Shown here: positions 52,588 through 55,875 of the stretch, piece after piece
How the letters are laid out: every line of letters starts with the position of its first letter
Position numbering within the stretch: position 1 is the stretch's first letter
Notes under the pieces: generated by a model
The model's database searches: none
The model's input: the letters and a program-made list of their open reading frames with translations, nothing else
Told to the model about the DNA's origin: nothing
Translations under genes and position numbers: made by a program
NCBI RefSeq assembly: GCF_009914755.1
Contig: NC_060933.1
Strand: one strand, 5' to 3'
Length of the DNA: 64,000 nucleotides
Origin: the human T2T-CHM13v2.0 reference genome, Homo sapiens

Positions 52588-53571
52588 CATTCAATGTCTT
52601 CAGAATTGCCGTCCCTCAGAACTCTTGCACCACGAGGTGGCAGCACTCCCAGTGTCTGGGTGTCTTCTGAGGGGTACCAGGATCCAGTAGAGGCCACTGG
52701 CTGTGCTGTCATATCCTAAGTGGCAGCAAGGCAGGCTTGGGTCTCTTGGCTGCTTCAGCACCAGAGGTTGGACAGTGCCCATGCATTGAGTCCCTCAGGA
52801 GAATGGGAGGGAAAGGAAGGGCAGAATGGAGTGATGTAGGGTCCATCCACCATGTCCCTGGATGTGGAGACCCCTGCTCCCACAGTAGTCCACACCAGGA
52901 CCACGATTAGCACTCATGAAGATGCCAGCCTCCATGTATATGTCCTTGTCTGACAACTCCTCCTTATTTTCATCCTGGAGACAAGAACCCTGAACACAGT
53001 AGCTCTGAGGGCACCTGAGTGTAACCTGAGACAGTCCCTGAAGACCTTTCATCCAAGCAGGATCCCTCCCTTGCCATCTCCAGACCTGCCCCACAAACTC
53101 CCTCCCTGGTCTCCTGGCTCTTGTTCACTCCTTCCAGGCAGCCTTCCACAGTCATCTCTAAAACATATATGACTGTCCCTTCCTTTATCCAGCACCTTCC
53201 ATGGCTCCCCAGAGCCCTCCAGGTCAAGTTCAAGTTCTTTGATCAGACACTAGATCTCAAGCTGCATTCTACCTCCTGAATTAAGATCCCGGAGAAGCCC
53301 ACCTTGCTCAGCACAAACGCATCACTGAAGTCGAAAATCTTGAACGTGGCCTTGGCATTGAGGAAGTCATCAACACCCTGGCTAGTGAGGGTGCAGTGCC
53401 GCTCCAGGATGATGGTGTCTAAAGTTGTGCACCAGGTCGCAGGCCCTGCAGAAGCATCTCCCCTCAGGAGTGAGGTAGTACAGGAAGTCTGTGCACAGGC
53501 AGATCTGCTGGTGCTGTTACACTATGAGGGCACTGAGCTCCAAGATGGTGGCAATATATTCACTGGGATTC
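52588..53571 (-). pseudogene. CYP4F: Unprocessed CYP4F pseudogene fragment, three exons (53571-53303, 52974-~52915, 52715-52588)
   Basis: NPSEYIATILELSALIV*..DFLYYLTPEGR..SQGVDDFL..; DENKEELSDKDIYMEAGIF; GYDSTASGLYWIL..EDIEW, equal to CYP4F exons ~7-9 with introns; stop and frameshifts; heme-binding exons not seen. Confidence 0.93.
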
Positions 53572-53940
53572 CTGCACGGTGAGGTTGGAGAGAGGAAGCA
53601 TCTCCACAACACATATGAAACCCTGGAAGCACTTCCCAGCCAGAAATTCAGGACCACGTTATATGCAGATATGGGTGCCCTCTGAGCACACTTGTCTCTC
53701 TGTCTCCCACTCTGAGCTGCCTCCTGGCCCCACATGCCCCAGCCTGGCCCAGGGCTTAGCCCAGTGGGTGTTCAGTCCATGGTGTTGACTGCTCCCTGGG
53801 CCAGGAGAGCCCTTGGTGGCTCTGTGACTCCTCCTGTGGAACCCCTACCTCTGCCTTGGGACCTCCCAATTCCCATGGAAGCCCCCACAGCTCTGGATTG
53901 TCCCACCTGCCCTGTGATCCTCCAGCCCCATAGGCCTTAC

Positions 53941-55875
53941 TCGATGCCTTAGCCCTCCCAGAACATGACACGTTTCTCTGAATGTGGCTGATGTCCAGGG
54001 CCATCTGTAGATGTTTGCTGGGGACCTCTTGCTGTTTTCCTTTATGGTCTGTAGGCCAGGGCCAAGAGGAGAAACCAGCCTAATCTCAGAATGGACAAAA
54101 GGCTCACTGCCCTAACAGCAACCACCAAACAGTCAGCAGTGCTTCTGGATGGAAAAGAGGTTTCATTCTGCAGAAAGCTCCTTGTTTGGCTTCTTTCTGA
54201 AGCCAGGAAGGGGTACCAAACCCAGCTTACCTGCGATGCCTACGTTAGCATCTGTGCCTAGGATGCATGATGGGCTCCCACTGCAGGGTTGACATTCCCT
54301 CCAGCTGGAGACCTGGGCTCCTGACACCACCTGGCGTGTTTGTCCTGCTCTGGATGACGGTGGAAAGGCTGTATCTGGTATTTTCCTAGGTCCTTGGTTT
54401 TCACCTTCTAGACATCCAGCAGGAGTGACCATACCCAGCCCCACATCTGAAATGGGACTCCCTTGTAGAGCACCTGAGACCTCTACAGACAGAAGAGTGC
54501 TCTGGTGAGACAGGCCACAGAGGTCCCCGGGGGGGGGGGGGGGGGGGGGATCAGGGGCTGGAGGATTCTGGAGGTTTCCAGCCTTGGGCTCTGTGGTTCC
54601 TCAAAGAGTTTAGGTTTACCTAGGACTAGGCCTCCCCTCCCACGATTCAAAGAGTGGGTGAGTGCTATGCATCACGAACTCTGATCTGGACCTATTTTTT
54701 CATTTAGGTCACCAAGAGACAACCCCTAACCCCCAAGCTAGGGATGGTCCAAGCTCTGGCATGAGATTCTCTTCCAGCAATGTGATGCTTGCAGGGACAG
54801 GGAGAAAAGCCGGTGACCAGGCCTGCTGTCCCCCAGGTAAGGACAGTGTGCTACCCACCCTCTGAGAGGCAGGTGGTGCCAGGTCACTGCACTGGGTCCC
54901 TGTACCCCTGGCTCTGCAGACACCAGTCATGGAGGTCCTCCCCTCTCCACATTACCTTCTTGCTGCTCCCAGATTTCTTCTGGTCATTAAGCACTTTGAG
55001 CCATTTTTCTGTGCAGCCGATCTGATATTTTTGCTATCAGATGAAACATGACAAAGTAAGCCGAGCCACCAGGATTCCTGGAGGGAACCTTGGATGCTGC
55101 GTCTTGGGATCCAGAGCCCTGATGGGACTGAACCAGAAGGAGCCAGGGAAGGACAAACACTGGGGCTCAGGCCCTATGACCCAACCGCCATTGGTGGCCT
55201 GTCCTCATGGCCCCAAGACACCCTGTCCTCAGGCCACAGACACCATGGGCTTTGGTCAGGTCCCAGCCTCCCAGTAGTGCCCTGGCACTGGTGGGTGCTG
55301 ACCCCCAAACCACAATAGCAGTTCTGGGTTATGGGTTTGGTAAAACCACCTCAGGGAGAATTCTGGGGTTGGGTTTGGCAGGAACCACGGGGCCTCCCAG
55401 GAATGATGTGTCACTCCTACTTGCCACAAAATGTGCACAGAGGCTATCCCACTGACCAGCCCATCCTGCTGGACAGGATGGAGGAAATCAGGGAAAAGGC
55501 AGGGTGGACATCTGGGGTGCAGGGAGAGGCAGGTGCATGCTGGGAGGTCAGACCCTGCGAGGGCTGTGGGGGCATCAGGTGGGGTGGGCTCCAGGTGCAC
55601 CCTCAATGCACTGGGTGGGTCTCAGGCCAGGCTCCCTGGACCCTGGTTGGCTGATGTGGTCACTCCCTGGGGGACTGCTGTCAAGCCCTGGCCACCCACC
55701 CTGGGCAGCACCGTCCCATCCCAAGACCGGATTTTCTGAGTCCTGAGACAGGACAGTGCTGTCCAGGCCTGACAGACTGGGAGGACCTGCCAAGTCCTCC
55801 ATCCCTAGACCAGCCTCCCACACAGCAGGGACAGTCTCTTCCATTTACCTTCAGGGCACTGACTGATCCATGTCA
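53941..55875 (-). pseudogene. Unprocessed TBC1D3/TBC1D26/USP6-family pseudogene fragment, four exons (55875-55849, 55033-54956, 54482-54375, 54048-53941)
   Basis: QKYQIGCTEKWLKVLNDQKKSGSSKK; RSQVLYKGVPFQMWGWVWSLLLDV*KVKTKDLGKYQ (108 nt); TIKENSKRSPANI..LDISHI..KRVMFWEG*GIE; these parallel TBC1D3 ..[17 protein letters not shown] / ..YKGMPMNIRGPMWSVLL..NPGRYQ / IMKEKGKRS.. with matching exon boundaries. Confidence 0.85.
54529..54549 (+). repeat. G21 homopolymer
   Basis: Directly visible. Confidence 0.95.

What the first reader, a model, noticed from the sequence alone, without database searches (positions are those of the whole stretch)
52588..55875. Candidate fossil chimeric gene: TBC1D3-family exons joined in phase to CYP4F exons
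Seen: four TBC1D3/TBC1D26-like exons on the minus strand are followed, after a 369 nt gap, by CYP4F exons 7-9 on the same strand. The last TBC exon ends ...GGC ATC GA|GTAAG (donor intact, 53941). The CYP4F exon begins TGCAG|G AAT CCC AGT GAA TAT (acceptor intact, 53571). Splicing gives G-I-E-N-P-S-E-Y, so both ancestral frames join. Known: TBC1D3 duplicons did create a chimeric gene, USP6 (TBC1D3-USP32). Inference: this may be an independent TBC-CYP4F exon-shuffling product, now disabled (stops, frameshifts, GT>AT donor at 54374, no heme exons) but possibly still spliced as a lncRNA. Phase match has a 1-in-3 chance prior.
Basis: partly seen in the sequence, partly recalled or inferred. Interest (0 to 1): 0.8.

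Follow-up and report, generated by a model that had tools for sequence, protein, structure and literature searches.

The report
Dead TBC1D3–CYP4F pseudogene mosaic
Internal pieces of two unrelated genes were joined head-to-tail long ago near a centromere and copied to 17 places in the human genome, but the joined reading frame was already broken in their common ancestor, so this is an ordinary mosaic pseudogene, some copies of which are transcribed as non-coding RNA.

Summary
On the minus strand, four exons of a TBC1D3-family gene (55875-53941) are followed, after a 369-nt hybrid intron, by three internal CYP4F exons (53571-52588). The TBC donor and CYP4F acceptor are intact and both parental introns are phase 2, so the ancestral frames do join.

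I mapped the breakpoint to 53724|53723, inside about 13-19 nt of imperfect microhomology. The junction is single-origin. 17 loci (chr2, 8, 9, 13, 18, 20, 21) carry it, and both halves give the same tree, with chr8 branching deepest (about 84% identity).

"Fossil chimeric gene" is not supported as a coding gene:
- The TBC piece lacks the first two coding exons, including the start codon.
- The CYP4F piece lacks the haem-binding exons.
- About eight disabling lesions trace to the common ancestor of all copies.
- Exons diverge as fast as introns.
- None of the 17 copies has an open fused frame.

The lncRNA suggestion is plausible. Paralogues CYP4F29P/C21orf15, CYP4F35P and CYP4F26P are reported as expressed, and their published qPCR amplicons lie in the TBC-derived part. 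The 53941-to-53571 splice itself could not be tested here.

Verdict: an ordinary pericentromeric mosaic pseudogene of modest interest, independent of USP6.

The parts
55785..56522 (-). TBC1D3-family-derived block 1. It starts inside the intron upstream of the third coding exon. This is the 5' breakpoint of the TBC fragment.
   Evidence: 71.8% over 655 nt to chr17 L026 (56407-55785) and 68.6% over 740 nt to chr1 L028 (56522-55793). Alignment.
56159..56438 (-). Inverted-repeat arm 1. This is the original copy, and it is present in TBC1D3 paralogues.
   Evidence: arms 56200-56438 and 55468-55704, 84-91% complementary; self-hits.
55843..55875 (-). TBC exon '0', homologous to the chr17 exon encoding ETELPPLTAREAK. 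It carries a 7-nt deletion, and the homologous donor reads GG.
   Evidence: The deletion is present in 15 of the 16 copies aligned there; chr8 lacks it.
55468..55745 (-). Inverted-repeat arm 2, an inverted duplicate inserted into the TBC intron. TBC1D3 paralogues do not have it.
   Evidence: 80.9% over 230 nt to L026 in reverse orientation.
53724..55288 (-). TBC1D3-family-derived block 2 (exons a, b and c with their introns). It ends at the junction.
   Evidence: 67-68% over about 1600 nt to five loci; 19 of 19 TBC-family loci end at 53724.
54956..55033 (-). TBC exon a (chr17: [27 protein letters not shown]). It is open in this copy only because an ancestral TAG became CAG.
   Evidence: 12 of 17 copies have TAG, including chr8; the five chr9 pericentromeric copies have CAG.
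54375..54482 (-). TBC exon b (chr17: LIDRAYKG...GRYQ). It has a TAG stop and its donor is GT>AT.
   Evidence: TAG in 15 of 17 copies. Donor AT in 7, TT in 1 and GT in 9 of 17.
53941..54048 (-). TBC exon c (chr17: IMKEKGK...RDRYGT+AA). It has two 1-nt deletions and a TAA. The donor GTAAG is intact and the intron is phase 2.
   Evidence: All three lesions and the GT are present in 17 of 17 copies.
53572..53940 (-). Hybrid intron of 369 nt: 217 nt of TBC intron plus 152 nt of CYP4F intron.
53724..53741 (-). Junction microhomology. The crossover lies between 53724 and 53723, within CATGTGGGGCCAG|GAGGCAG.
   Evidence: three-way alignment with five TBC and two CYP4F parents.
52269..53723 (-). CYP4F-derived block: three internal exons with their introns. 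The 3' breakpoint lies in the intron after exon Z.
   Evidence: 75.6% over 1362 nt to chr19:15.70 Mb; 73.4% over 1523 nt to chr19:15.75 Mb; no other CYP4F homology anywhere in the window.
53303..53571 (-). CYP4F exon X (p450 profile positions about 170-248). It has a TAA and a 2-nt deletion. The acceptor AG is intact.
   Evidence: The 2-nt deletion is in 17 of 17 copies and the TAA in 16 of the 16 that keep that stretch.
52908..52974 (-). CYP4F exon Y, with its donor GT>AT.
   Evidence: Donor AT in 6, GC in 2 and GT in 7 of the 15 copies that have the exon.
52588..52715 (-). CYP4F exon Z (I-helix region, p450 profile positions about 275-313). It has two 1-nt deletions and its donor is GT.

Best explanation
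This is a mosaic unprocessed pseudogene. A 2.8-kb internal fragment of an old TBC1D3-family paralogue carries coding exons 3-6, counted from the start codon of the chr17 paralogue. It was joined in an intron to a 1.5-kb internal fragment of an old CYP4F paralogue carrying three exons, from the F/G-helix region to the I-helix. The join lies within a short stretch of imperfect microhomology. It happened once, before the last common ancestor of the 17 copies now spread over the pericentromeres of chr2, 8, 9, 13, 18, 20 and 21.

Same strand and equal intron phase are most likely coincidental. The unit had no start codon or promoter from the TBC parent, only about a third of the TBC domain, and no haem-binding part of the P450. 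It has evolved neutrally for as long as can be traced.

Shown: anatomy, breakpoint, single origin, shared lesions, lack of constraint.

Inferred:
- The joining mechanism was microhomology-mediated end joining or replication template switching. The neighbouring inverted duplication fits the latter.
- The age is probably older than the hominoids.
- Some copies are transcribed as lncRNA that starts in, or runs through, the TBC-derived part.
For: Homology and breakpoints:
- Parental homology includes the introns.
- In a probe across the junction, all 38 candidates were scored. 17 span it, 19 of 19 TBC-family loci stop at 53724, and 2 of 2 chr19 loci start at 53742.
- The junction microhomology is shown.

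Parents:
- The chr19 exons hit PF00067 at profile positions 170-248 and 275-313 of 462 (E 7.5e-12 and 4.8e-13).
- The chr17 locus carries RabGAP-TBC in a downstream exon (E 1.2e-10).
- No other TBC or CYP4F homology exists in the 64-kb window when compared with 24 kb and 21-22 kb of the parental loci.
- The TBC start-codon exon and the next exon lie about 1.05 and 0.75 kb upstream of where homology begins.

Single origin: both halves give congruent trees, with chr8 sister to all other copies (support 0.914 and 0.989).

Lesions that trace to the ancestor of all copies, chr8 included:
- exon a TAG;
- exon c, two 1-nt deletions and a TAA;
- exon X, a TAA and a 2-nt deletion;
- exon Z, two 1-nt deletions.

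No constraint:
- Mean pairwise divergence in exons against non-exon sequence is 0.122 against 0.119 (TBC) and 0.118 against 0.117 (CYP).
- Variable columns by codon position are 65/175, 46/173 and 51/174.
- The branch leading to the fused lineage is 0.18-0.20 in exons against 0.18-0.205 in non-exon sequence for the CYP half. The two chr19 genes themselves differ by 0.141 in exons against 0.219 in introns.

Conceptual splicing of all 17 copies gives at least 5 stops in every frame. The stop-free run across the joint in the ancestral frame is 20 codons.
Against: - The donor GT (53940) and acceptor AG (53572) of the hybrid intron are kept in 17 of 17 copies and the phases match. A spliced unit would need exactly this, although neutrality predicts it with a chance of about 0.2.
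- Paralogues are reported as expressed, and one is said to have spliced ESTs, so the unit is not transcriptionally dead.
- All evidence on the ancestor comes from human paralogues. Gene conversion between copies could have spread some lesions.
- A short coding phase between the fusion and the last common ancestor cannot be excluded.
- Copy counts are lower bounds, because the genome search scores only the best candidates.
Confidence: 0.8

Rival explanations
1. The unit is a chimeric lncRNA. The TBC exon-c donor (53941) is spliced to the CYP4F exon-X acceptor (53571) in at least some paralogues. The mosaic therefore lives on as a spliced non-coding transcript, known under names such as CYP4F29P/C21orf15. 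This is compatible with the best explanation on the coding question. It differs only in claiming that the hybrid intron is used.
For: Passages seen in four papers:
- CYP4F29P is listed as a 'transcribed unprocessed pseudogene' with the highest GTEx expression in oesophagus mucosa (PMC13403586).
- C21orf15 is described as a juxtacentromeric chr21 lncRNA with spliced ESTs, citing Brun et al. 2003 (PMC8174121).
- qPCR detection is reported for CYP4F26P, CYP4F35P and C21orf15 (PMC8088053; PMC8174121).
- CYP4F60P is listed as an eQTL gene (PMC12233309).

All three published amplicons map into the TBC-derived part, in window-equivalent coordinates: 54354-54120, 54131-53996 and 54062-53940. The matches are exact on the chr18/chr13, chr9:33.62 Mb and chr21 copies respectively.

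GT and AG are kept in 17 of 17 copies.
Against: - Each amplicon is contiguous in the genome and none crosses the joint.
- Two amplicons lie in, and one starts in, what is intron for the TBC parent. The annotated exons therefore do not follow the four TBC exons.
- I could not see any transcript model, EST or read.
- Nothing is annotated at this window's copy in the gene table that came with the finding.
- No CpG island lies within 52-60 kb.
Confidence: 0.35
2. One reading: a once-functional, protein-coding TBC-CYP4F exon-shuffling product that was disabled later.
For: The two parts share a strand, the intron phases are equal and the splice sites are intact. The USP6 precedent exists (PMC6913916, passages).
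Against: - There is no start-codon exon and no promoter from the TBC parent.
- Exon c reaches only to about position 67 of the 216-position RabGAP-TBC profile, by a weak match.
- The P450 part covers only about positions 170-313 of 462 and lacks the haem-binding region.
- At least eight lesions trace to the common ancestor.
- The exon rate equals the intron rate along the whole stem.
- 0 of 17 copies has an open fused frame.
Confidence: 0.05
3. The juxtaposition is an assembly artefact, or it arose several times independently.
For: None found. Pericentromeric regions are prone to assembly errors in older builds.
Against: The same junction, to the base, occurs in 17 loci on 7 chromosomes of a telomere-to-telomere assembly. 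The trees of the two halves are congruent.
Confidence: 0.01

Closest known systems
USP6 (Tre-2), the hominoid TBC1D3-USP32 fusion gene
   Same: A TBC1D3-family segment is juxtaposed by duplication to part of an unrelated gene on the same strand. USP6's TBC and USP domains are described as highly homologous to TBC1D3 and USP32 (PMC6913916, passages).
   Different: - USP6 keeps the 5' end, the start codon, the whole TBC domain and an open frame. Here there are only four internal exons and no open frame.
- The USP6 TBC part groups with TBC1D3, whereas the fused fragment lies outside the whole sampled family. The two events are therefore independent.
- By divergence this event is probably older.
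Pericentromeric CYP4F unprocessed pseudogenes (CYP4F29P/C21orf15, CYP4F35P, CYP4F26P, CYP4F60P)
   Same: By primer mapping these are paralogous copies of this very unit, on chr21, chr18 and chr9:33.62 Mb. CYP4F60P lies among GXYLT1P5, SNX18P5 and ANKRD20A7P at 9p11.1 (PMC12233309), the same kind of neighbourhood as this window.
   Different: - They are named and treated as CYP4F pseudogenes only.
- No searchable paper links them to TBC1D3.
- This window's copy has no entry in the supplied gene table.
Fusion units made of partial gene duplicates by segmental duplication, for example CHRFAM7A (recalled, not looked up here)
   Same: Internal fragments of two genes are joined in introns by duplication, the splice sites are kept, and the unit is transcribed.
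   Different: CHRFAM7A has an open frame and a product. This unit does not.

Membership tests
TBC1D3-family-derived sequence | Nucleotide homology to TBC1D3 paralogues that includes the introns, with coinciding exon edges | tested here: met
   67-72% to chr17 and chr1 loci over 0.65 and 1.6 kb, with four exon edges coinciding; 19 family loci match the last 77 nt before the junction.
TBC1D3-family-derived sequence | The parental locus encodes a RabGAP-TBC domain | tested here: met
   a downstream exon of the chr17 locus (L044:124-264) hits PF00566 at E 1.2e-10 (41.8 bits against a cut-off of 25.2). One search shows the other open exons of the locus. The name TBC1D3 for this locus is recalled.
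TBC1D3-family-derived sequence | Derivation from an extant TBC1D3, TBC1D26/28 or USP6 paralogue | tested here: not met
   66-71% identity to all seven sampled family members. The fused lineage sits outside the clade that holds all of them. The tree is midpoint-rooted and has no USP6NL outgroup.
Functional TBC (RabGAP) protein | A complete TBC domain in an open frame | tested here: not met
   - Window exons give 0 Pfam hits.
- The homologous chr17 exon c reaches only to about profile position 67 of 216, by a weak match (E 0.14).
- Stops and frameshifts are shown.
CYP4F-derived sequence | Homology to the chr19 CYP4F cluster that includes the introns, and parental exons that are P450 | tested here: met
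   73-76% over 1.36-1.52 kb. PF00067 at E 7.5e-12 and 4.8e-13; in the unrooted tree the nearest relative is the chr19:15.70 Mb locus (split support 0.864).
Functional cytochrome P450 | Haem-binding (Cys-pocket) region and a complete fold | tested here: not met
   Only profile positions about 170-313 of 462 are represented. No further CYP4F homology exists in the window.
Chimeric (fusion) gene of the USP6 kind | Two parental parts on one strand, with usable splice sites and matching phase | tested here: met
Chimeric (fusion) gene of the USP6 kind | A 5' exon with a start codon from one parent | tested here: not met
   In the chr17 paralogue the start-codon exon and the next exon lie upstream of the point where homology with the window begins.
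Chimeric (fusion) gene of the USP6 kind | An open fused frame in some copy or in the inferred ancestor | tested here: not met
   0 of 17 copies; ancestral lesions.
Chimeric (fusion) gene of the USP6 kind | Purifying selection on the exons | tested here: not met
Transcribed unprocessed pseudogene / lncRNA | RNA evidence, including a splice across the hybrid intron | not testable with these tools
   Only print evidence for paralogues was available. No reads or transcript models could be seen.

The most novel reading that the evidence does not exclude
The squamous-epithelium 'CYP4F pseudogene' lncRNAs (CYP4F29P/C21orf15, CYP4F35P, CYP4F26P and their chr9 and chr2 paralogues) are really chimeric TBC1D3-family/CYP4F transcripts. 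Their 5' exon and promoter were recruited from the intron and exon of an otherwise extinct, deep-branching TBC1D3-family paralogue. They use the ancient hybrid intron. The unit predates the catarrhine-platyrrhine split, which would make it much older than USP6.
Probability: 0.3. Interest if true: 0.45.

Novelty: new member of a known kind. Interest (0 to 1): 0.3.

Why it matters
- It gives a fully mapped example, to the base and with microhomology, of how pericentromeric duplication stitches small internal gene fragments together. It also shows that phase-compatible, splice-competent joints arise without any coding history.
- It preserves the only trace found here of a deep TBC1D3-family lineage.
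- It has a practical consequence. Assays and annotations labelled as CYP4F pseudogene lncRNAs target TBC-derived sequence and cross-match several paralogues, so expression values reported for single members may be sums over copies.

Tried and rejected
- Pfam on single-frame read-throughs of the region (6 queries, 0 families) and on the window's own exons (4 queries, 0 families). They are too broken and too short. I used the parental exons instead.
- Pfam scan of 140 stop-to-stop ORFs upstream of exon X in the chr19:15.75 Mb gene, meant to count exons and check 'exons 7-9'. Only one upstream exon was detected, so the numbering stays unverified.
- Test of whether window 55467-55288 is homologous to the chr17 intron stretch it replaces. 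110 of 180 positions are identical, against a shuffled mean of 102 and maximum of 112, so homology is not shown.
- The chr9:109.30 Mb copy as a possible pre-fusion TBC relative. It nests with the chr9p13 copies (support 0.993), carries the exon-a TAG and ends at 54971 in a simple repeat, so it is a secondary truncation.
- Conservation of the hybrid intron's splice sites as a sign of function: not significant.
- Rfam on 51500-57500: no family.
- CpG-island search over 52-60 kb: none, with observed/expected at most 0.47.
- Literature. 'CYP4F + pseudogene + pericentromeric' gave 0 papers. 'TBC1D3 + CYP4F' gave 23 papers, of which 15 were listed and none is about a fusion by title or abstract. 'detritus exons + CYP4F' gave 1 paper, which I did not read.
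- Brun et al. 2003 is not held.
- Supplements were not consulted. Transcript tables there might bear on the splice question.
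Full report
**Observation**

I read window 56500-52000 on the minus strand and searched the window's own genome with 55200-52500 (51 matches; 65 candidates, 40 scored).

- The first 1477 bases of that query (window 55200-53724) match loci on chr17, chr1 and chr7 at 67-71%.
- Bases 1459 onward (window 53742 downward) match the chr19 15.7-16.1 Mb cluster at 73-81%.
- BLAST against the fetched loci gave, for the TBC side, 67.6% over 1604 nt (55288-53724) and 71.8% over 655 nt (56407-55785) to chr17:37.27 Mb (L026).
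- For the CYP side it gave 75.6% over 1362 nt (53742-52409) to chr19:15.70 Mb (L020) and 73.4% over 1523 nt (53742-52269) to chr19:15.75 Mb (L021).

Alignments and exon extraction show four TBC-type exons and three CYP4F-type exons whose edges coincide with open exons of the parental loci.

- The chr19 exons hit Pfam p450 at profile positions 170-248 and 275-313 of 462 (E 7.5e-12 and 4.8e-13).
- The chr17 locus carries RabGAP-TBC in a downstream exon (E 1.2e-10).
- The names TBC1D3 and CYP4F8 for these loci are my recollection.

The donor at 53941, the acceptor at 53571, the 369-nt gap, the AT donor at 54374 and the phase match are all as described. The chr17 exon c leaves two bases over, and the chr19 exon X starts with one base before its frame.

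There are three corrections:

- The 'ATG' of the first TBC exon aligns to an internal exon and is not a start codon.
- The donor of that exon that is homologous to the parent's reads GG here.
- The donor of the second CYP4F exon is also lost.

The numbering 'exons 7-9' could not be checked.

**Anatomy**

Against 24 kb of the chr17 locus and 21-22 kb of two chr19 loci, the 64-kb window holds no further TBC or CYP4F homology apart from Alu matches. Each part is therefore a short internal fragment.

- The TBC fragment begins in the intron upstream of the third coding exon. In the chr17 paralogue, the start-codon exon and the next exon lie about 1.05 and 0.75 kb upstream of the point where homology with the window begins.
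- The CYP4F fragment ends in the intron after its third exon, at about 52269.
- Inside the TBC fragment, 55745-55468 is an inverted duplicate of 56438-56159. The TBC1D3 paralogues lack this duplicate.
- The following 180 nt show no demonstrable homology to the stretch they replace.

**Breakpoint**

A three-way alignment places the crossover between 53724 and 53723.

- The window reads CATGTGGGGCCAG|GAGGCAGCTC.
- The five TBC parents read CAYGTGGGGCCAG|AACCCAG (four have CATG and L030 has CACG).
- The two CYP4F parents read CATCTGGGGCAG|GAGGCAGCTC (L020) and ACCTGGGGCAG|GAGGCAGCTC (L021).

The join therefore lies in about 13-19 nt of imperfect microhomology.

A 141-nt probe across the joint found 38 candidates, all of which were scored:

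- 17 loci span the joint: chr9 ×7, chr2 ×5, and one each on chr8, 13, 18, 20 and 21.
- 19 of 19 TBC-family loci stop at 53724.
- 2 of 2 chr19 loci start at 53742.

I infer microhomology-mediated joining. The nearby fold-back duplication would fit replication template switching, but that is not shown.

**History**

The 17 copies, aligned over 4.35 kb, fall into clades. Identities are to the window:

| Clade | Copies | Identity |
|---|---|---|
| chr9 pericentromere | 5 | 98-100% |
| chr2:95.27 Mb | 1 | 93.6% |
| chr9p13 | 2 | about 91% |
| chr13/18/21 | 3 | about 90.7% |
| chr2q21 | 4 | about 89% |
| chr20 | 1 | about 89% |
| chr8:43.81 Mb | 1 | about 84% to every other copy |

- Trees of the TBC half and the CYP half, each rooted on its own parents, are congruent. 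Both place chr8 as sister to all other copies (support 0.914 and 0.989). That means one fusion event, before the last common ancestor.
- The TBC fragment lies outside a clade holding all seven sampled family members, including the chr17:5.03 Mb locus that I take to be USP6 (midpoint root). This event is therefore independent of USP6.
- In an exon-X tree of nine chr19 paralogues, the CYP fragment attaches next to the chr19:15.70 Mb locus, deep in the family. That locus has AG>GG at the exon-X acceptor.
- Recalled genome-wide divergences are about 6-7% for human-macaque and about 11-12% for human-marmoset. Against these, the 11-16% between clades suggests an origin before the catarrhine-platyrrhine split. 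This is a rough inference. Gene conversion or unusual rates would change it.

**Was it ever a gene?**

Lesions present in every copy that keeps the site, chr8 included:

- Exon c: two 1-nt deletions and a TAA (17 of 17). The TAA sits three codons before the joint, in the very frame that would join to CYP4F.
- Exon X: the 2-nt deletion (17 of 17) and a TAA (16 of 16).
- Exon Z: the second 1-nt deletion (15 of 15). The first 1-nt deletion is in 12 of 15; the other three have an 8-nt gap over the same place.
- Exon a: TAG in 12 of 17 copies, including chr8. The five chr9 pericentromeric copies have CAG, which is a secondary change on the tree.

Later lesions:

- Exon 0: the 7-nt deletion, in 15 of the 16 copies aligned there (chr8 lacks it).
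- Exon b: TAG in 15 of 17.
- Exon Y: TAA in 9 of 15.
- Donor losses in exons b and Y.

Measures of constraint:

- Among seven clade representatives, exons and non-exon sequence diverge equally: 0.122 against 0.119 (TBC) and 0.118 against 0.117 (CYP). There is no third-position excess.
- On the branch from the parental genes to the fused lineage, CYP exon and intron rates are equal (0.18-0.20 against 0.18-0.205). The two chr19 genes do show exon constraint (0.141 against 0.219).
- TBC exons are even faster than introns.
- Conceptual splicing of all 17 copies gives at least 5 stops in each frame.

So there is no trace of a coding period. Given the missing ends, the unit was most likely dead on arrival. 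A brief coding phase before the common ancestor cannot be excluded with human paralogues alone.

**Chance**

Same strand and equal phase have a prior of about 1 in 6. GT..AG is kept in 17 of 17 copies, but 67% of all columns are invariant, so four sites stay unchanged with a chance of about 0.2.

**Transcription**

I could see no RNA data. In print (passages only):

- CYP4F29P is called a transcribed unprocessed pseudogene with the highest GTEx expression in oesophagus mucosa (PMC13403586).
- C21orf15 is called a juxtacentromeric chr21 lncRNA with spliced ESTs (PMC8174121, citing Brun et al. 2003, which is not held).
- CYP4F26P and CYP4F35P were measured by qPCR.

Mapping the published primers shows:

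- The C21orf15 pair is exact only on the chr21 copy and brackets TBC exon c (window-equivalent 54062-53940).
- The CYP4F26P pair is exact on chr9:33.62 Mb (54131-53996).
- The CYP4F35P pair lies in the TBC intron between exons b and c (54354-54120).

The transcripts behind these names therefore contain TBC-derived sequence, including parts that are intron in the TBC parent.

**Comparison and verdict**

This is a mosaic unprocessed pseudogene of the kind that pericentromeric duplication produces. It resembles USP6 only in having a TBC1D3-family partner. It fails the tests for a fusion gene: no start exon, no open frame and no constraint.

The CYP4F part is a known, named pseudogene family. The TBC part, the mapped junction and its age are not in the searchable literature.

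Interest is modest. The useful by-products are the base-level junction, a deep extinct TBC1D3-family lineage, and a caution about assay specificity for the 'CYP4F' lncRNAs.

Noticed in passing
window 55468-55745 and 56159-56438: An inverted repeat (84-91% complementary) brackets TBC exon 0. The second arm is an inverted duplicate that TBC1D3 paralogues lack, but it is present in all copies seen, chr8 and the acrocentric copies included.
   Followed up: partly
window 55287-58600 and beyond: The sequence upstream of 55287 belongs to a far more widespread duplicon: acrocentric short arms of chr13, 14, 15, 21 and 22, plus chr1, 3q29, 4, 9 and 20.
- Many copies stop at window-equivalent 55287, for example chr21:7.5 Mb, where the flank beyond is unrelated.
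- Others stop at about 55538, at 55101 (chr3:200.78 Mb) or at 54971 (chr9:109.30 Mb).
- 55287/55288 is also where TBC1D3 homology resumes. This coincidence is unexplained.
   Followed up: partly
window-equivalent 54354-53940, in paralogues L013, L014, L016 and L012: Published primers for CYP4F35P, CYP4F26P and C21orf15 lie in TBC-derived sequence and are not copy-specific. For example, the CYP4F35P reverse primer matches 11 of 17 copies exactly, and the CYP4F35P pair matches 8 copies with at most 1 mismatch each.
   Followed up: yes
window 56773-57061: A 43-nt tandem repeat of 6.7 copies with 95% matches, just upstream of the TBC fragment.
   Followed up: no
window 54529-54549: A run of 21 C on the minus strand in the TBC intron between exons a and b. 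The chr17 and chr1 paralogues have a 14-nt gap at this place.
   Followed up: no
L020 (chr19:15.70 Mb), position 1673-1674: The chr19 CYP4F paralogue nearest to the fused fragment has GG instead of AG at the acceptor of exon X, although its three exons read open. It may itself be a pseudogene.
   Followed up: no
window 50592-50889: An Alu is present in the chr9 pericentromeric copies and in chr2:95.27 Mb but absent from the chr13, 18, 20 and 21 copies. It is a usable relative age marker for that clade.
   Followed up: no
chr17 L026 against chr1 L028: Between TBC1D3-family paralogues, the three exons differ much more than the introns (0.285 against 0.152). This fits fast or positively selected exon evolution, or decay of the chr1 copy.
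   Followed up: no
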